A DNA stretch of 64,000 nucleotides, taken from NCBI GenBank assembly GCA_963675595.2, contig CAXXLZ010000002.1, positions 4,416,001 through 4,480,000 of the forward strand, given 5' to 3'. Position 1 is the stretch's first letter. The number at the start of each line of letters is the position of its first letter. Below the pieces are notes generated by a model. That model searched no databases and was not told the origin of the DNA. It saw only the letters and a program-made list of their open reading frames with translations. This DNA is from Thermodesulfobacteriota bacterium. Its GTDB lineage: Bacteria; Desulfobacterota; Desulfarculia; JACQYL01. Positions 11,331 to 19,075 of the stretch are shown one piece after another. The translations under genes and the position numbers were made by a program.

Positions 11331-12002
11331 TCAGGAAATGTCCCGCAGCTTGGACCGTACCAATTCAGTCGATTCCGAAGACGGGTACTTCTCCAGAAAC
11401 TGCTCGTAGAGGGCTTTGGCCTTTTCCTTGTCGCCCAAGGCTTCGTAGAGCCGTCCCAATTCCAGAGAGACGGTCTGCCCGCCGAAGTCTTCCGGTTCTT
11501 TTTGGACCGGGATCAGCACTTCGACTCCATCGGCGTAATCTCCCTTGGCTTCAAGGGCTTGAGCTAGACTGATCCGAACCGACGTCTGAAAGAGGGTATG
11601 GTCTTTCGATTGATCGAGTGCTTCCCGGTAGGCGGTGGCCGCCGAACCGTAGTCCCCGTTTTCGAACAACGCCTTACCCAATTCGGCGGCGACCAGGGCC
11701 GAGCCTTCGGCTCCGGGATGCCGAGCGAGAAAACGTTGCAGCAGGTCGATGCGCTGTTCGGTCGTCTCGGCGGTTCCCGCTTGGGCCAGCAGTTCGTTAA
11801 ACCGGTTCAACGCCGAGCTCGAATACGTCTTGTACAACTGTCCGGCCAGCAGGACCACCACTATGACTCCCGCCGCCACCAGAGCCGTCTTCGTGAATTT
11901 CTTAGGATTCTCCAACACGTAGTTGAGTAACCGAACCGATTTGTCGAAAAACTTGTCGGGCGTCTTCAGCAATTGCTTTCTGGTGATCTTCTCGGCCGCC
12001 AT
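11331..12002 (-). CDS. YfgM-like membrane-anchored TPR protein
   Basis: KITRKQLLKTPDKF N-terminus, one TM helix, then TPR-like helices. Confidence 0.75.
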   Translation of the reverse strand: MAAEKITRKQLLKTPDKFFDKSVRLLNYVLENPKKFTKTALVAAGVIVVVLLAGQLYKTYSSSALNRFNELLAQAGTAETTEQRIDLLQRFLARHPGAEGSALVAAELGKALFENGDYGSAATAYREALDQSKDHTLFQTSVRISLAQALEAKGDYADGVEVLIPVQKEPEDFGGQTVSLELGRLYEALGDKEKAKALYEQFLEKYPSSESTELVRSKLRDIS

Positions 12003-12688
12003 GGGATATCCACCTCGGGGAAAAAGTTTTCGACTCCTTTAGCAGAGCCTGAAGGGTTCGTCAATGACGTGTCGGGTTTTGAGCGTTTCATGTCCGACTT
12101 GTGTGGCCCGCTCTTTGCATTTCCATACCAGAAAAGAACTTGTTCCGCTCCAGCAAGCGGCGGTTTCCGGTCCTTTCGGAAGGACGGCGAAATGCAGGCC
12201 GGTCGGAACCGACCGGTGGCTGCGCTGAATGGAACAAGCCCTTCGTAGGAGATGAACCGTTCCGTCGTCGGGAGCGGGAAGACCGCTCGTTCGCTGGGAA
12301 AGAGTCCCGGAGCGGAGGGTTGGAGGCGTTTCACGGGAAATTGAATGTAATGTGCCCCAAGTGGGCACTTGGTTTCACAACAGGCTGAAATGAGGACGAC
12401 TCGGGCGGTGTCCGAGCCCGCGAGAGGTGAGGTGGGCTTAACGACGATACGCGCCGTGCGAGCGGTTAGTTGCGCCCGGAGCCCGCCTATAGAAAAAACC
12501 TCTGTTTTCAGTAAGTTGCGTTGCACAAGTAGCTCGGCGGTCGGAATCCCCCGGACTTGGTGTCCGGTTCCGGCCGATTTCGATCCGCCAAGAGATGGAA
12601 ATCCCTTCCTGTGTGTCCTGATTTGCGCTCCCTATCGTCCTAAACAGTCAAGGACAGATTCTGTTGGGTGTCCGGATTAGTCTATTTA

Positions 12689-12701
12689 TTTCAGGTAGTT
12701 G
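12689..12701 (+). promoter_or_regulatory. IHF-like binding site (second copy at 12506-12518)
   Basis: TTTCAGGTAGTTG and TTTCAGTAAGTTG each match WATCARNNNNTTR with one mismatch and follow AT-rich tracts. Confidence 0.45.
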
Positions 12702-12774
12702 CCGCTATATTTCTTGATGCTCTCCTCTGGAATGCTCTTGCTCCTCTGCTTGCCTCCTTCTTCCGACTCACTGC

Positions 12775-12790
12775 CGGCACACCTCTTGCT
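12775..12790 (+). promoter_or_regulatory. Sigma-54 (-24/-12) promoter
   Basis: CGGCAC-ACCTC-TTGCT has exact GG-N10-GC spacing and lies about 75 nt before the first peptide ATG. Confidence 0.7.
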
Positions 12791-12863
12791 CTAAGACAAA
12801 AGTGACTGATCGGACATCGGTCTTTCGTTCTGAAGCGAAAACTACGCACTGGAGGATACGAAT

Positions 12864-12944
12864 ATGGCAGTGGAAAGCAGCGGAATGGTGACGTTCATGG
12901 GGATTCTGGTTTCCCTTACCGTGGTGGCCATGTTTTTCGCCTAA
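12864..12944 (+). CDS. 26-aa hydrophobic peptide 1 (MAVESSGMVTFMGILVSLTVVAMFFA)
   Basis: RBS GGAGG at 12851-12855, ATG 12864, TAA 12942-12944. Paralogue of the next ORF. Below the ORF-track size cutoff. Confidence 0.8.
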   Translation: MAVESSGMVTFMGILVSLTVVAMFFA

Positions 12945-12980
12945 TCACCTGACTGAGTTCAAAAACCAAGGAGGTACATG

Positions 12981-13061
12981 ATGTCTGTTGAAAGCACTGG
13001 AATGGTAACGATCATGGGTTTCGTCGTTTCTCTCACCGTGGTGGCCATGTTTTTCGCTTAA
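12981..13061 (+). CDS. 26-aa hydrophobic peptide 2 (MSVESTGMVTIMGFVVSLTVVAMFFA)
   Basis: RBS AAGGAGGT at 12968-12975, ATG 12981 (alternative 12978), TAA 13059-13061. 21/26 aa identical to peptide 1, with 6 synonymous codon differences. Confidence 0.8.
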   Translation: MSVESTGMVTIMGFVVSLTVVAMFFA

Positions 13062-13296
13062 TCGATTGCTGCGGAAGTCGACAAACTTAGGAAGTTTTAT
13101 ATATATGTGAAGCGGATGCGGGCGGGTGCGAACCCGCGGGATGCCGACCGGTGTTTATACGGGAATCGGCGTCCGCGCACGTCCGCTTTTCATTTTTGTA
13201 CGCCCCGTAATCATCGAGTCATGTCCCTCGGCTCTCGGGGGGAGCGGGCCCAAGCCCCGGATATCAAGCAACCTTGCCTTGCAGAGGGCGGGAACC

Positions 13297-13503
13297 GTGG
13301 AAGTATCGAACTACTTCGACCTCCTGCGTTTCGAATCTTATCAGAGCCTCATCCCTCATCGTTTCCTCTCGGATGGGACCTTTTCCTTACCTACAGCTCA
13401 GTCCGACAACCCGGCTTCTCGGCAGGTGATTCCTCCGGAATTGCATTGGGAGTGCGTGCAGGTTCAGACGCCGGCTCTCCCGAAAGCGGCATCCCGCAAG
13501 TGA
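13297..13503 (+). CDS. Possible small hypothetical protein (68 aa, VEVSNYFDLLRFESY...)
   Basis: 3' part of ORF 13126..13503. GTG start after a purine-rich GAGGGCGGGA; stops 35 nt before the kinase. No recognisable motif. Confidence 0.3.
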   Translation: MEVSNYFDLLRFESYQSLIPHRFLSDGTFSLPTAQSDNPASRQVIPPELHWECVQVQTPALPKAASRK

Positions 13504-13538
13504 CCGAAGTGCAACGATTCTGAAGTGGAGGTGCGCGG

Positions 13539-16500
13539 ATGAAACTCTTAAAGGCGCCGAATCCTTCCCGTCGGGGATCGAGACTGCTGCTCCCGGCGAT
13601 GTTGGTGGTCGGTTTGGCGGGCATCCTTATTTTGCTGAGCGATACCGATATCTTTGCCTCCACGTCGGTCGATGAGGCAATGAAGGAGGTAGTGGCGGAA
13701 GCCGGGACGTCATCCGCGGACGCGGGAAAGGCTCTATTACATTGGACGTTGCTCTTATGCGGCGCCTCGGTTTGGATCCTTCGTTCCCATTCCGGCCGAG
13801 CGAATCGGGAGCGGGAGCTCGGCGAAATGCTCCAGCGATACCAATCCATTTTGGAGACCATCGAGGAGGGCTATTACGAGGTTGATTTGGAGGGGAACCT
13901 GACGTTCTTCAACTCTCCTCTCGCCGCCATTCTGGACTACCCCGAAGAAGAGCTCTACGGAATGAACTTCAGGATATACACGCCGGAAGCGAGCAAGCAG
14001 GAGGTTTTTCGGATATTCAACGACGTGTACGTCTCCGGCGTGCCCGTCCGCGGCTACTCCTGGGAAGTTCTGCGGAAGGGGGGCGACAGGCGGGTTATTG
14101 AGGCTTCGGTCTCCTTAATTAGAGACCCGGATGGGGAACCAACGGGTTTTCGCGGCATCATCCGGGACATTACCGAGCGGAGGAGGGCGGAGGAGGCACT
14201 GCGCGAGTCCCGCAGAATGCTTGACGCCGTGATGAACAGCATTCCCCAGGCTATGTGCTGGAAGGGGCGAGATTCGGCCTACTTGGGGTGCAACCATGTC
14301 TTTGCGCAGCATGCCGGTTTGTCCGACCCCGAAGGCATCGTCGGCAAAACGGATGCGGATATCGCTTGTCTTCAGGAGGAGGCGCCGCACAACAGGGAGC
14401 GGGAAAAGGAAGTCATGGAATCCGGCATCCCGGAGCTCCATGTGATCGAGTCGAGAGCCGGCGTCGATTGTCGACCGATCCGGCGCGATACGACTCGGGT
14501 TCCCCTACACGATGCTTACGGCAACGTCATGGGCATTCTTGTGGTGTATGACGACGTGACGGAACTGAAACGAGCCGAAGAAGCGATCAGGGCGAGCGAG
14601 GAGCGTCTGAGAGTGATCATGGATGCCCTCCAGGTAGGAATTCTGCTCGTAGACGCTGAAACCAGGATGATTGTGGATGTTAACCCGGCTCTTGTTTCCA
14701 TTCTGGGCGGTACCAGGGGGCAGATTGTCGGGCGGCCGTGTGTTCTCCCGGGATGCGTGCCCCATGAAACCAAGTGTCCCATCCTTGGTGAAAGATCCAA
14801 GGAATGCAGAGTGGAACGGACTATTGTCGGCGGCACGGGTGAAAGCACCCCGGTGCTTGTCTCCGCCTCTTTGATCGGTCTTGCCGGGCGCGACCACGTG
14901 CTCGAAACCTTTGTGGATATAACGGATCGGGTCCGCGCCGAAGAAGAACTCAGGGTGCAAACCCATCGTGCCTTGAAGGCGGGGCGAGAATTGGCCGAGG
15001 TTAACGAACAGCTTGAAAACGCCGTGTCGCGGGCCAATGTGATGGCCCTCGAGGCACAATTGGCAAATCGGGCGAAAAGTGAGTTTCTTGCCAACATGAG
15101 CCACGAAATCAGGACACCCATGAACGGCGTCATCGGGTTCACGGAGATGCTTCTGGAGACTTCACTCACCGGGGAGCAAAGAGAATGTGCTGAAACCATC
15201 AAACGAAGTGCGGAAGCACTTCTGAACTTGATCGACGACATCCTTGACTTCTCCAAAATCGAAGCGGGGCGGCTTCAACTGGAGAGAGTGGATTTCGATC
15301 CCGAATTACTCCTTTATGACGTGTGTACGATTATTCGGCCCAGAGTGTCTCCAAGTGTGGAAATCGTCTGCCGCATCGGTGACAGTGTGCCTTCGTATCT
15401 CAAAGGGGATCCCCACCGGTTCCGTCAGGTACTGATCAATCTCTTGGGAAACGCGGCCAAATTCACCCAGGCCGGGTCCATCGAGCTTACGTTGGAGATT
15501 CAGGAGGTAATCGGCCACCGCTCAAAAGTGCACGTCCAGGTTCGGGACACGGGTATCGGCGTTCCATCGGACAAGCTGTCCTGTATCTTCGAGATGTTTC
15601 AGCAGGCCGACGGTTCAATGACCCGAAAATACGGGGGCACCGGTTTGGGCCTCTCCATCTGCAAAAGGATCGCCCATCTCATGGAGGGGGAGGTGTGCGC
15701 CGAAAGTGTTCTGGGAAAAGGAAGCACATTTCACTTCTATGCATGGTTCGAAGAGTCCGGCAGGGCGCCTGAAGAAATCCCTTCCGCCCGGCGGCTTGAT
15801 GGGAAAAGAGTACTTGTGGGAGACGGCAATCCGTCGGTTAGGGAAGTTCTGCTGCACACCGTGGTTGCGAACGGGGGTATCGCGGTGTCCGCGGATCATA
15901 TCGACGCGGTCATCGCGGCGGTGGTGGAAGCGGAGAAGGCGGGGACGCCTTTTAACGTCGTCTTGTTGGACCTTTCACTTCCGGGCTCGGAAAGCGCTCA
16001 TGGCATGGTGAAGAGGCTCAGGGACTTGAACGACGGGTATTCGAATATCTCGTTGGTGGCTCTATCGTCCTCTCATGAGAACGGTACCAAGGAAGCGCTC
16101 GAGGCGGGATTCGATGGAGTTCTGAGCAAACCGGTACGCCGCGGAAGGCTCGTCGAAATGGTTCAACGTCTCGGGAAGACCGAATCGAAGTCGCCCGAAT
16201 CGGAGCCGGCGGCCGAGAGCGTGAGGCGATGCGTCGACGACCAAAGCGAAGACCCTTCCATACGAATACTGCTCGTGGAGGACAATCCGGTCAACAGGAG
16301 ACTCACCGAAATGATGCTTCACAAGGCGGGATACAGGGTGGAAATCGCGGACAATGGAGAACAGGCTTTGGAGAAGTTCACTCACCGGCCCGGCGATTTC
16401 GACCTGATTTTCATGGATATCCACATGCCCCGTATGGACGGCTTGAAAGCGGCCGAGATTCTTCGGGAGAAGGGATATGCGGAGGTTCCCATCGTGGCCA

Positions 16501-17296: not shown

Positions 17297-17749
17297 CGCG
17301 GACTCCGAATAAACAATAGTAAAGCCCCGTGCGATCTTACCCTTCGCACCACCGGTCGGTATTCCCGGCTTACCTTCCCGAGTTCGCCGACTCGGGGAAC
17401 GAGGTCCGATTGTCGATGTGCAATGGGGTGAGCGGATTGATAAATCACATTATAAAGGGTATCCGGGGAGGGATGCAACCACGAGAGGCAAGCGGCAGGG
17501 AAAAAGGATCGGGCGTGTTCCAATAATTTGATCTCTTATCCCAATAAATAACGATGCCTCTCCGCGCTTGACGGCACACGCCGGATGCCGAACTGATTCG
17601 AATATACAGGATTCCGGGTTTTCGGTTCATTGGGGCTTCCGACTTTCCGGCTTCGGCACAGGTCGTGTGTAAATGCAATGATCGTCCGGTCGGCATTCGT
17701 CGGCAGGCTCGTACAGGCGGGATTTCGGTTCGAACCGTTGAGGAGCAAG

Positions 17750-19075
17750 GTGGTGAGCAATCGGGCATCCATATGGAACAAGACCGTCATCGGATGGAGT
17801 CTCTATGATTTCGCGAATTCCGCCTTTGCCACCACGATCTTGGCGGTGATTTTCAACAAGTACTATGCTCAGGTCGTGGCCGGTGGGGAAGAGGGGACCG
17901 TGGTGTTCGGGTATCGGGTACAGGGGGCGGCTCTGTTCGGCTATGTGTTGTCGCTGAGTTATGCCGTGATTGCGGTGGCCTCACCCGTACTGGGCGCCAT
18001 TGCGGACGCCGCCTACCGAAGAAAGAGCTTCTTGGGCGTTTGTTGCGCCGTGGGGGTTTCGGCTTCCGGTTTGCTCTATTACGTGGGGCCCGGGGACGTG
18101 TTTACGGGCAGCATGCTGTTCATCATTGCCAACATGGGCTTTGCGGGAGGAAATGTTTTCTACAACAGCTTTCTCCCGGAAATCTCCAACGAGTCCAATG
18201 CGGGTCGGATATCCGGCCTCGGTTGGGCGGTCGGTTACGTTGGGGGCGGCATGTTGTTGGGGGTGAATCTTGTGATGCTCCAATACCCGGAGTTATTGGG
18301 GTTTGCTCCCGGCACTTTCACCGTGGGGCACTGCTTCGTGTCCGTGGCGTTGTGGTGGGGGCTGTTTTCCATTCCCATGTTTGTCTGGGTTCCCGAGCAA
18401 GGGCGTCGCGGCACGGCAAGGGATCCTTCAGGCTATGTCCGTTCCGGATTTCGGAGGGTTGGAGAGACGTTGCGTCATATCCGGCGATATCGTGAGTTCT
18501 CGAAGTTTATTCTCTCCTATCTCATGTTCAACGATGGAATCGAGACCGTCATCGTCTTTGCTTCGATTTATGGAGCCACTGTGGTGGGCATGGACACCGG
18601 CGAACTCATCGTGTTCTTCCTCGTAATTCAGGGTACCGCTTTCGCCGGGTCTCTCTTGCTGGGCTTCCTCTCGGATGCTTGGGGACAGAAACGCACTCTG
18701 TTGGCCGCCTTGTGCGTTTGGACTCTGATCGTACTCTGGGCTTCCGTCCTGGGTATGTGGGACCTGAAGGGGGAGTACTGGATATTGGGTATCTTGACGG
18801 GGATCGTGCTCGGAGGTTCACAGTCCATCGCGCGTTCACTCGCGGGACTCTTGATTCCTCCGTCGAAGAGCGCTGAGTTCTATGGATTTTACGCCATCAG
18901 CGGCAAGTTCGCGGCGGTTTTGGGGCCGGCCATGTACAGTTCGGCCATCGCTCTCACCGGGAGCATGACGCGGGGTATTCTCGTGCTGGGACTGCTGTTC
19001 GTCTCGGGGATGATCGGCCTTGCGACGGTGAACGTCCCCGCGGGCATTCTTGCGGCACGGGCGGAAACCCCTTGA
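17750..19075 (+). CDS. MFS transporter, UMF1/Atg22-like family
   Basis: WSLYDFANSAF, NVFYNSFL, ISGLGWAVGYVGG, NDGIETV and QSIARS motifs; many TM segments. GAGGAG RBS precedes GTG 17750/17753. Confidence 0.88.
   Translation: MVSNRASIWNKTVIGWSLYDFANSAFATTILAVIFNKYYAQVVAGGEEGTVVFGYRVQGAALFGYVLSLSYAVIAVASPVLGAIADAAYRRKSFLGVCCAVGVSASGLLYYVGPGDVFTGSMLFIIANMGFAGGNVFYNSFLPEISNESNAGRISGLGWAVGYVGGGMLLGVNLVMLQYPELLGFAPGTFTVGHCFVSVALWWGLFSIPMFVWVPEQGRRGTARDPSGYVRSGFRRVGETLRHIRRYREFSKFILSYLMFNDGIETVIVFASIYGATVVGMDTGELIVFFLVIQGTAFAGSLLLGFLSDAWGQKRTLLAALCVWTLIVLWASVLGMWDLKGEYWILGILTGIVLGGSQSIARSLAGLLIPPSKSAEFYGFYAISGKFAAVLGPAMYSSAIALTGSMTRGILVLGLLFVSGMIGLATVNVPAGILAARAETP

What the first reader, a model, noticed from the sequence alone, without database searches (positions are those of the whole stretch)
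12775..13061. Hidden tandem pair of 26-aa hydrophobic peptide genes behind a sigma-54 promoter
Seen: two ORFs at a 117-nt period, MAVESSGMVTFMGILVSLTVVAMFFA and MSVESTGMVTIMGFVVSLTVVAMFFA, each with a strong SD (GGAGG, AAGGAGGT). They share length and TAA stop, are 21/26 identical, and have an invariant C-terminal VSLTVVAMFFA. The 5 amino-acid changes are conservative and 6 further codons differ only synonymously, while the flanks are not conserved, which is the signature of selection on the peptide. There is no Lys/Arg/Cys and only one charged residue (E4). A GG-N10-GC promoter lies just upstream. Established: short hydrophobic peptides act as kinase modulators (MgrB/SafA on PhoQ), as pheromone precursors whose C-terminal 7-8 residues are released (streptococcal SHPs, enterococcal iCF10/iAD1), or as type I toxins. 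I do not recognise these peptides as any named family. Inference: a previously unannotated micropeptide family acting as a signal, membrane regulator or self-assembling structural subunit.
Basis: partly seen in the sequence, partly recalled or inferred. Interest (0 to 1): 0.88.

Follow-up and report, generated by a model that had tools for sequence, protein, structure and literature searches.

The report
Sigma-54-driven tandem membrane micropeptide genes
Two tiny unannotated genes behind a sigma-54-type promoter encode 26-residue, very hydrophobic peptides that selection has preserved and that recur in one sister genus, so they are probably real small membrane proteins of a new, narrowly distributed family whose function is unknown.

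Summary
ORFs 12864-12944 and 12981-13061 (+) each encode 26 aa and are 21/26 identical. Each has a strong SD. A GG-N10-GC motif lies at 12776-12789 and a large hairpin plus U-tract at 13109-13200.

They behave as coding genes. Ten of the 15 nucleotide differences are at codon position 3. dN/dS is 0.09 with dS about 1. Flanks are at chance identity, codon usage is gene-like, and the mRNA has no excess structure.

It is 11/26 identical, keeps E4 and has no basic residue. None of 5,911 26-codon ORFs of the own genome scores near it.

No other relative turned up in 95 class genomes, 401 phylum genomes, or motif scans of genome, metagenome and viral contigs. Pfam, NCBIfam, PADLOC, PHROGs and PDB gave nothing.

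The neighbours differ between the two genomes, so a link to the adjacent histidine kinase is not supported.

Best reading: a self-contained sigma-54-switched operon for two single-helix membrane micro-proteins that act by binding a larger membrane protein. The partner is unknown. There is no expression evidence. This is a new family of a known kind, of moderate interest.

The parts
12407..12674 (+). Candidate regulator-binding region (inferred only). It holds three exact copies of GGTGTCCG at 12407, 12559 and 12667, a related GTGTCC at 12613, and a GGACA...TGTCC inverted pair at 12652-12674. These lie about 100-370 nt upstream of the -24 element.
   Evidence: family D1, three copies; D2, D5. 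Of the 33 GGCAC-N5-TTGCW sites in the genome, only this one has the 8-mer within 300 nt upstream. No binding protein is identified and function is untested.
12775..12790 (+). Sigma-54-type -24/-12 promoter, CGGCACacctcTTGCT. GG is at 12776-77 and GC at 12788-89. The expected start of transcription is about 12800-12802 (inferred).
   Evidence: one mismatch to the consensus. (N5 spacing enriched: 33 sites against 8-19 at spacings 2-8). (composite promoter+SD+ATG pattern: 108 hits against 4 controls in 95 class genomes, this site included). (one rpoN). (46 Sigma54_activat matches).
12801..12863 (+). 5' leader of about 62 nt (inferred), with SD1 GGAGG at 12851-12855.
   Evidence: The start of transcription is not measured.
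12864..12944 (+). Micropeptide gene 1, 26 codons plus TAA: MAVESSGMVTFMGILVSLTVVAMFFA.
   Evidence: codon-usage log-odds 0.46 per codon, the best of six frames. (homologue in G001).
12945..12980 (+). 36-nt spacer between the ORFs, with SD2 AAGGAGGT at 12968-12975.
   Evidence: Not conserved with the leader (12/36 identical at period 117).
12981..13061 (+). Micropeptide gene 2, 26 codons plus TAA: MSVESTGMVTIMGFVVSLTVVAMFFA.
   Evidence: 0.21 per codon, the best of six frames..
13109..13200 (+). Branched G+C-rich hairpin (13109-13189) followed by UUCAUUUUUGU. Probable intrinsic terminator closing the unit.
   Evidence: MFE -58.1 kcal/mol for 13062-13205, z = -2.65, 2 of 200 shuffles as good. 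One search lists part of it as terminator-like.

Best explanation
This is a self-contained bicistronic operon of about 0.4 kb that encodes two paralogous 26-residue membrane micro-proteins.

Shown from sequence:
- The layout is a sigma-54-type promoter, a leader of about 62 nt, SD plus ORF1, a 36-nt spacer, SD plus ORF2, then a large terminator hairpin with a U-tract.
- Each product has a six-residue polar, acidic cap (M-A/S-V-E-S-S/T) followed by a 20-residue hydrophobic segment that runs to the very C-terminus.
- Neither product has a basic residue.

Inferred:
- The genes are silent until an unidentified enhancer-binding protein (one of about 43 in the genome) activates sigma-54 RNA polymerase.
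- Both ORFs are then translated from their own ribosome-binding sites.
- The peptides insert into the cytoplasmic membrane as single helices, probably with the acidic N-cap outside. This is by analogy with small coat proteins whose acidic tails are translocated, which I recall rather than tested.
- They act there by helix-helix packing against a larger membrane protein, as a regulator or accessory subunit in the manner of MgrB, KdpF or AcrZ. They are not an enzyme, a secreted signal or a structural polymer.
- The partner is unknown. The neighbouring hybrid histidine kinase is only one candidate, and that adjacency is not conserved.
For: Coding:
- Of 15 nucleotide differences between the copies, 4, 1 and 10 fall at codon positions 1, 2 and 3 (binomial p = 0.0085). 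NG86 gives dN 0.089, dS 0.99, ratio 0.089. Flanks are at chance identity.
- All five replacements are conservative in the sense frame. In the antisense frame that shares the wobble positions the changes are radical (R/T, I/K, N/I, A/D), and that frame has no proper SD.
- Codon-usage log-odds are 0.46 and 0.21 per codon, similar to the neighbouring genes (0.26-0.41) and the best of six frames. The long ORFs in the upstream gap score -0.11 and -0.19.
- The mRNA 12800-13062 is not more structured than shuffles (z = +1.14), which argues against a structural RNA.
- Strong SDs lie at 8 and 5 nt. Only 16 such hydrophobic ORFs exist genome-wide.

Homologue:
- G001, same family but another genus, carries a 26-codon ORF MAIENTLWEVVMGFLVCSTAIAMFLI with a GGGAG SD 8 nt upstream.
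- It has the same length, is 11/26 identical to each copy, keeps E4 and has no basic residue.
- Its ungapped BLOSUM62 score is 57. The best of 5,911 26-codon ORFs of the own genome scores 29 (0 of 5,911 reach it).
- A typical neighbouring protein (TPR_21) is 43% identical between the same two genomes. The peptide has therefore diverged about as much as an ordinary protein.

Promoter:
- The genome has one rpoN and 46 Sigma54_activat matches, 42 of them at E of 1e-59 or better.
- GGCAC-N5-TTGC[AT] occurs 33 times in the genome, against 8-19 at spacings 2-8.
- The composite GGCAC-N5-TTGC-N40-70-GGAGG-N4-10-ATG gives 108 matches against 4 for the reversed control in 95 class genomes, and this site is one of them.
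- The 30 fetched composite loci precede typical sigma-54 targets.

Terminator.

Membrane location: mean hydropathy of residues 7-26 is 2.18 and 2.20.
Against: - No transcript, ribosome or peptide data exist. No RNA run was listed.
- Only three sequences define the family.
- It was not found in G002 (same family, 99% complete) or in any other genome searched.
- The sigma-54 motif is not demonstrably conserved in G001. The only candidate there has two mismatches about 215-230 nt upstream, and 4 such matches occur in 17 kb against 5.4 expected.
- No enhancer-binding-protein gene lies in the window. The nearest is about 50 kb away.
- The last 23 nt of both ORFs are identical, synonymous sites included. 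This suggests gene conversion or a nucleotide-level constraint and weakens the selection argument for the C-terminal third.
- A membrane helix with no basic residue at all is unusual, so the topology is open.
- Clustering of the variable residues on one helix face is not significant (p = 0.18).
- No partner is identified, and the two genomes share no neighbours.
Confidence: 0.55

Rival explanations
1. These are stress-induced, membrane-perturbing peptides of the type I toxin kind. On this reading, tightly repressed small hydrophobic peptides depolarise or permeabilise the membrane when induced. A sigma-54 promoter, which has essentially no basal activity, would replace the usual antisense-RNA control.
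For: They are short, very hydrophobic and present as tandem paralogues, which is common among type I toxin loci (recalled). They are stand-alone units with their own promoter and terminator in a long gene-free gap. Their neighbours are not conserved.
Against: Neither Pfam nor NCBIfam gave a match to any family, toxin families included. No sigma-70-like promoter was found on the minus strand that could give an antisense RNA (the consensus may not fit this phylum). Conservation is confined to the ORFs, whereas type I loci also conserve the antisense region. There are no basic residues at all, unlike the toxins I recall.
Confidence: 0.15
2. These are regulatory leader peptides. Translation of the two ORFs would control read-through of the downstream hairpin into the hybrid histidine-kinase gene at 13539.
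For: A large hairpin with a U-tract lies 47 nt after ORF2. No sigma-70-like promoter was found between it and the kinase start, so the kinase could depend on read-through.
Against: The homologue in G001 is followed by unrelated genes and by different hairpins without a U-tract. The whole peptide, not a few codons, is conserved. A duplicated leader would be unusual. There are 340 nt between the hairpin and the kinase start.
Confidence: 0.06
3. These are secreted or released peptide signals, that is, pheromone precursors.
Against: No receptor, exporter, peptidase or maturase gene lies beside either locus. The C-terminal residues are not kept in G001 (AMFFA against AMFLI, and residues 17-21 differ). 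The peptides have no signal-peptide n-region.
Confidence: 0.04
4. The ORFs are not translated. On this reading the pair is a duplicated DNA or RNA element, for example a repeated sRNA module, that happens to be open.
For: The antisense frame shares the wobble positions, so the third-position excess alone does not prove the sense frame. The 23-nt identical 3' block could be an RNA or DNA site.
Against: SDs, the exact ORF boundaries of the conserved block, conservative replacements, gene-like codon usage and the lack of RNA structure all argue against it. So does a same-length ORF with an SD in another genus, at amino-acid but not nucleotide similarity.
Confidence: 0.05

Closest known systems
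MgrB, the 47-aa inner-membrane peptide that feeds back on the PhoQ sensor kinase (PMC2789325, abstract read)
   Same: It is a small membrane peptide made on a signal and thought to act by direct contact with a larger membrane protein. In this window the pair sits next to a membrane-anchored hybrid kinase whose N-terminal 85 residues look, by my reading of the translation, like two hydrophobic segments around a short loop. No membrane-helix predictor was run.
   Different: There is no sequence relation (no Pfam hit). The peptides are about half the length, have no basic residues and come as two copies. The promoter is sigma-54-type, not a promoter of the kinase's own regulon as far as can be told. 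The kinase adjacency is absent in G001. Binding is untested.
Accessory single-helix subunits such as KdpF, AcrZ and CydX. Sources: start of abstract as shown in the listing for PMC3618439 and PMC7267776; one passage of the review PMC12648545.
   Same: Size class (about 30-50 aa), a single hydrophobic helix, and action by packing against a transporter or oxidase. KdpF, as I recall, is likewise almost uncharged.
   Different: Those are encoded inside or beside the operon of their complex. This pair is a stand-alone unit with its own promoter and terminator. It has no transporter or oxidase gene beside it that recurs in both genomes: the only transporter gene in the window's neighbourhood, an MFS at 17630-19075, has no counterpart at the G001 locus. 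It matches no family model.
Type I toxins (Ibs, ShoB, TisB, Ldr and the like; recalled, not searched by name)
   Same: Very short hydrophobic peptides, often in tandem paralogous copies, under tight repression.
   Different: No antisense RNA signature, no basic residues, no family match, and a sigma-54 promoter instead of a sigma-70 or LexA-type promoter.
Sigma-54-driven tandem micro-peptide operons noted earlier by this scan in other phyla (e1-1387979 and e1-1380993 with GKAGW tails, e1-1227794 with KTWW tails, e1-5053062 with four peptides of about 48 aa). These are AI notes and unchecked.
   Same: The architecture: a sigma-54 motif, two or more paralogous hydrophobic micro-ORFs that gene callers miss, and a dedicated terminator.
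   Different: The peptides here end in AMFFA or AMFLI and carry no K, G-K-A-G-W or K-T-W-W tail, so there is no sign of common descent. I could not see those sequences to compare them.

Membership tests
Sigma-54-dependent promoter | GG and GC doublets exactly 10 nt apart within TGGCAC-N5-TTGCW | tested here: met
   CGGCACacctcTTGCT at 12775-12790, one mismatch. The N5 spacing is enriched genome-wide. The composite with SD and ATG gives 108 hits against 4 controls.
Sigma-54-dependent promoter | The organism has rpoN and enhancer-binding proteins | tested here: met
   One Sigma54_DBD match. 46 Sigma54_activat matches, 42 of them strong.
Sigma-54-dependent promoter | A cognate activator and its upstream binding sites | tested here: inconclusive
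   There is no activator gene in the window. Three GGTGTCCG repeats lie upstream, with no known binder.
Sigma-54-dependent promoter | An rpoN-dependent transcription start about 12 nt downstream of the GC | not testable with these tools
   No RNA run was listed.
Kinase-modulating membrane peptides (MgrB/SafA type) | Sequence membership in the MgrB or SafA families | tested here: not met
   No Pfam or NCBIfam match at E up to 10, apart from sub-threshold noise.
Kinase-modulating membrane peptides (MgrB/SafA type) | A conserved genetic link to the kinase | tested here: not met
   The G001 homologue lies among VanW-like, AMMECR1 and Ig-like-domain genes. No protein is shared with window 1-30000 at E of 1e-5 or better.
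Kinase-modulating membrane peptides (MgrB/SafA type) | Physical binding to the kinase's membrane domain | not testable with these tools
   The complex predictor asks for chains of 30 residues or more and the peptides have 26, so no job was sent.
Type I toxin-antitoxin | An overlapping or adjacent antisense RNA with its own promoter, conserved together with the ORF | tested here: inconclusive
   No minus-strand sigma-70-like site in 11900-13700. Conservation stops at the ORF borders. The consensus scan may not fit this phylum.
Type I toxin-antitoxin | Match to a known toxin family model | tested here: not met
Accessory subunit of a membrane complex (KdpF/CydX/AcrZ type) | Encoded within or beside the genes of the complex | tested here: not met
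   It has its own promoter and terminator. The neighbours are a TPR_21 protein and a hybrid kinase, and the neighbours in G001 are different.
Peptide pheromone precursor | An adjacent receptor, exporter or processing gene | tested here: not met
   None among the neighbours at either locus.
Small single-pass membrane protein (the general kind) | A translated ORF under 50 aa with one hydrophobic helix of about 20 residues | tested here: inconclusive
   The helix and the coding signatures are met. Translation and membrane location are not measured.

The most novel reading that the evidence does not exclude
The pair is one lineage's version of a widespread, convergently evolved module that has not been described. 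In this module, sigma-54-gated operons with zero basal activity encode two or more paralogous, gene-caller-invisible membrane micro-peptides. Earlier notes of this scan report the same architecture in at least four other phyla. A 2025 review of bacterial small membrane proteins does not mention sigma factors or RpoN at all (0 occurrences of 'RpoN' and 'sigma'). If true, sigma-54 regulons would commonly include a membrane micro-protein arm, for example to remodel or retune membrane complexes on demand.
Probability: 0.12. Interest if true: 0.7.

Novelty: new member of a known kind. Interest (0 to 1): 0.42.

Why it matters
Small membrane proteins are systematically missed by annotation. These three genes are absent from a 15-billion-protein collection. 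The few that have been studied turned out to be regulators of kinases, pumps and transporters.

This locus offers a clean, testable case. It is a compact unit with a predicted on/off sigma-54 switch, two paralogues for genetic dissection, and an orthologue that marks nine invariant positions for mutagenesis (M1, E4, M12, G13, V16, T19, A22, M23, F24).

Its wider weight is limited by its very narrow distribution. That weight would rise only if the recurring architecture of sigma-54 plus tandem micro-peptides seen elsewhere in this scan proves to be a general module.

Tried and rejected
Tools not usable for 26 aa:
- Structure prediction, complex prediction, the protein-atlas search and the search of protein representatives state a 30-residue minimum and were not sent. 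No fold, oligomer or kinase-binding prediction exists.

Homologue searches that found nothing beyond G001:
- Single-peptide search of 41 relatives: 2 of 41 matched, namely G000 itself and a noise hit at E = 1.15. This search missed G001.
- Two-sequence profile on 401 phylum genomes: 81 had matches at E up to 1. I inspected the 13 of the 28 newly fetched loci that had short open frames, and none is a complete ORF.
- Three-sequence profile on 95 class genomes and 401 phylum genomes: only pieces of larger proteins.
- The search for related loci: 146 motif stretches in genome contigs, 203 in metagenome contigs and 81 in viral contigs, none confirmed. These scans need an exact 8-residue motif and would not have found G001.
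- My own patterns: VVAMFFA plus stop gave 24 stretches, 0 relevant. ESxGMVTxMG gave 66 matches in 65 metagenome loci, 0 convincing and one ambiguous in L097.
- Plasmids by tblastn: none.
- Exact look-ups in the protein collection: none.

Synteny:
- TPR_21 orthologues in G001-G004 have no small hydrophobic ORF within 1.5 kb.
- The gap DNA has no match in G001-G004.
- The kinase's N-terminal membrane part has no clear orthologue; only its PAS domains match.

A possible decayed second copy in G001 was suggested by two shared words, but the alignment scored 44 against a shuffle mean of 38 with sd 6. Rejected.

Leader similarity between G000 and G001: the parts gave p of 0.03-0.05 but in inconsistent register, and the whole leader was not significant. 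I do not claim it.

Helical-face clustering of the variable residues: p = 0.18.

Expression:
- No RNA holder was listed.
- In run X8 (kind not on record) the only contigs on 12000-13700 are 12158-12431 and 12835-13186. The second is identical over 352 nt and then runs on unlike the window. Contigs cannot show RNA ends, so nothing is claimed.
The informative comparison inside the ORFs could not be made.

Rfam: nothing in 11900-13600 but a chance miRNA hit.

Papers: searches (listings only) found no description of sigma-54-driven hydrophobic micro-peptides.

Full report
OBSERVATION

Each has 26 codons and a TAA stop. They are 21/26 identical, with residues 16-26 invariant. Neither has K, R or C, and each has one charged residue, E4. 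GGAGG lies 8 nt before the first ATG and AAGGAGGT lies 5 nt before the second. An ATG at 12978 would add one Met but is only 2 nt from the SD, so 12981 is the likelier start. The GG-N10-GC motif is CGGCACacctcTTGCT at 12775-12790.

ARE THEY GENES?

The 81-nt ORFs are 66/81 identical. At the same 117-nt register the leader and spacer are 8/40, 9/40 and 12/36 identical, which is chance level. Conservation therefore starts at the ATG and ends just after the stop.

The 15 differences fall 4, 1 and 10 on codon positions 1, 2 and 3 (p = 0.0085). NG86 gives dN 0.089, dS 0.99 and a ratio of 0.089.

There is a caveat. The antisense ORFs at 12842-12931 and 12959-13048 share the wobble positions. However, their replacements are radical, they run out of the conserved block, and they lack a usable SD.

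Other coding signatures agree:
- A codon-usage model trained on 1,463 long ORFs of the genome scores the sense frames 0.46 and 0.21 per codon. These are the best of six frames and similar to the neighbouring genes (0.26-0.41).
- The long ORFs in the upstream gap score -0.11 and -0.19, so that gap is non-coding.
- The mRNA is less structured than shuffles (z = +1.14).
- Genome-wide, only 16 ORFs of 18-45 codons combine a strong SD with hydropathy of at least 1.5, and this adjacent pair is two of them.

One oddity remains. The last 23 nt of both ORFs are identical even at synonymous sites. This points to gene conversion or an extra nucleotide-level constraint.

THE TRANSCRIPTION UNIT

The genome has one rpoN and 46 matches to the sigma-54 activator domain, 42 of them strong. 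None is in the window.

The bare motif is not significant in the window (2 matches, 1.35 expected), but two further tests support it:
- GGCAC-N5-TTGC[AT] occurs 33 times in the genome, against 8-19 at spacings 2-8. Spacing 9 has 45, which is unexplained. Seven of the 33, including this one, share TTGCTCT.
- The composite GGCAC-N5-TTGC-N40-70-GGAGG-N4-10-ATG gives 108 matches against 4 for the reversed control pattern in 95 genomes of the class. This is my sum of the table. The own genome has 4 matches against 1 control, and this site is one of the 4.

The 30 fetched composite loci precede pilins, an ammonium transporter, binding proteins and the like, but none precedes a similar micro-peptide.

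Downstream, 13109-13189 folds into a branched G+C-rich hairpin followed by UUCAUUUUUGU (z = -2.65).

Upstream, GGTGTCCG occurs three times, at 12407, 12559 and 12667. No other GGCAC-N5-TTGCW site in the genome has this 8-mer within 300 nt. I treat these as candidate activator sites only.

RELATIVES

The peptides match no Pfam, NCBIfam, PADLOC, PHROGs or PDB entry. They are not in the 15-billion-protein collection. The genome holds no further copy.

A profile of the two copies found one hit in the 95 class genomes. It lies in G001, a different genus of the same family, at E = 0.05. That E-value alone is not significant. The hit, however, is a complete 26-codon ORF, MAIENTLWEVVMGFLVCSTAIAMFLI, with GGGAG 8 nt upstream. 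It lies in a gene-free gap of about 900 nt.

As a null I scored all 5,911 exactly-26-codon ORFs of the own 6.8-Mb genome against the two peptides. The best reaches BLOSUM62 29, while the G001 ORF scores 57 and 49. It is 11/26 identical to each copy. Nine positions are invariant (M1, E4, M12, G13, V16, T19, A22, M23, F24), and it too has no basic residue. The TPR_21 neighbour is 43% identical between these genomes, so the peptide has diverged like an ordinary protein. The G001 ORF is also unannotated.

The three-sequence profile found nothing more in the class or in 401 phylum genomes. It did not find a match in G002, the third genome of the family (99% complete). Motif scans of genome, metagenome and viral contigs gave only chance matches. 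Those scans need exact motifs and would have missed G001, so distant members may exist.

CONTEXT

In the window the unit lies between a divergent TPR_21 (YfgM-like) gene and a hybrid histidine kinase. The kinase has PAS, HisKA, HATPase and two receiver domains. By my reading of its translation, its N-terminal 85 residues look like two hydrophobic segments around a short loop; no membrane-helix predictor was run.

In G001 the neighbours are VanW-like, AMMECR1 and Ig-like-domain genes. No protein is shared between window 1-30000 and 17 kb around the G001 gene. The peptide gene is therefore an autonomous unit, and the kinase adjacency gives no conserved support for a kinase partner.

G001 has only a two-mismatch -24/-12 candidate on the peptide strand. 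That is not above chance, so conservation of sigma-54 control is not shown. Its 3' flank has strong hairpins without a U-tract (z = -4.26).

MECHANISM

What is shown:
- A compact promoter, two cistrons and a terminator.
- Purifying selection on a peptide that is a six-residue acidic cap plus a 20-residue hydrophobic helix.
- The same design in a sister genus.

What I infer:
- Conditional, sigma-54-gated synthesis.
- Insertion as a single membrane helix.
- Action through helix packing with a larger membrane protein, as known for MgrB (PMC2789325, abstract read) and for KdpF and AcrZ (start of abstract as shown in the listing).

I give this reading 0.55. The rivals are a toxin-like membrane-perturbing peptide (0.15), a leader or attenuator (0.06), non-coding (0.05) and a secreted signal (0.04). 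The rest is unassigned.

KNOWN OR NEW

The kind, a small single-pass membrane protein missed by annotation, is well known. The family is new and very narrow.

The sigma-54 switch is unusual. A 2025 review of bacterial small membrane proteins has no occurrence of 'RpoN' or 'sigma' (term search only). My paper searches (listings only) found no such case. Earlier unchecked notes of this scan report sigma-54 promoters ahead of tandem micro-peptides in several other phyla. Those peptides have different tails (GKAGW, KTWW), which the peptides here lack. That suggests a recurring architecture rather than one family.

LIMITS

- No expression evidence of any kind exists, and no RNA run was listed.
- The one close strain that could have given an independent test (run X6, about 96% identical) was laid, but its differences beyond 12750 were not printed.
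- Structure and complex predictors do not take 26-residue chains.
- Supplementary files of papers were closed.

Noticed in passing
window 12003-12775: A stretch of about 770 nt upstream of the promoter has no credible gene. Its long ORFs have non-coding codon usage. It has no Rfam match and is unique in the genome. Run X8, of unrecorded kind, has a 274-nt contig covering exactly 12158-12431. That piece folds with z = -1.8 on the + strand and -2.6 on the - strand. It may hold an undescribed RNA or simply the enhancer region.
   Followed up: partly
window 12835-13186: In run X8 a 450-nt contig matches this span with 0 differences. The span runs from 29 nt before ORF1 to the 3' arm of the terminator stem. 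The contig then continues for 98 nt unlike the window. Contigs cannot show RNA ends, and the cause (a transcript-derived contig, a rearrangement or a chimera) is open.
   Followed up: no
window 13297-13503: A 68-codon GTG ORF with a GAGGG SD lies just ahead of the kinase start at 13539. Its codon score is ambiguous (0.07 per codon) and it has no Pfam match. A marine-sediment metagenome run (X12) holds 13242-13405 identically.
   Followed up: partly
L165 10148-10163 (+), genome G001: A perfect TGGCACacaagTTGCT lies about 95 nt ahead of a 490-aa Ig-like-domain gene. It is 1.5 kb from the G001 peptide gene and on the other strand. A shared activator is conceivable but untested.
   Followed up: no
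L097 4699-4773 (-), metagenome contig: A 24-codon ORF starts M-F-V-E-S-V-G-M-V-T-I-M-G. Eight of these residues were forced by my search pattern. The Met, Val3 and Ile11 agree in addition. It has no SD and a basic C-terminus. It is ambiguous and I do not count it as a relative.
   Followed up: partly
window 12955-12967 and L165 about 397 nt upstream of the G001 ORF: An identical 13-nt word, GAGTTCAAAAACC, is shared between the spacer separating the ORFs here and the G001 upstream gap (E = 0.035). The test for a decayed second copy there was negative.
   Followed up: yes
G471:C284:27490-28793 and G012:C62:12727-14043 (class relatives): Each has three successive units of sigma-54 promoter plus SD plus ATG, spaced about 610-630 nt apart. 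These are tandem arrays of sigma-54-driven genes of unknown identity.
   Followed up: no
own genome C2:488218-488304 (-), outside the window: Another 28-codon hydrophobic ORF with a strong SD (AAAGGAGT), found in the genome-wide screen. It may be a further unannotated small membrane protein.
   Followed up: no
own genome, GGCAC-N9-TTGC[AT]: Spacing 9 gives 45 matches, more than the canonical spacing 5 (33) and far more than the other spacings (8-19). This may be a repeated element. It was not examined.
   Followed up: no
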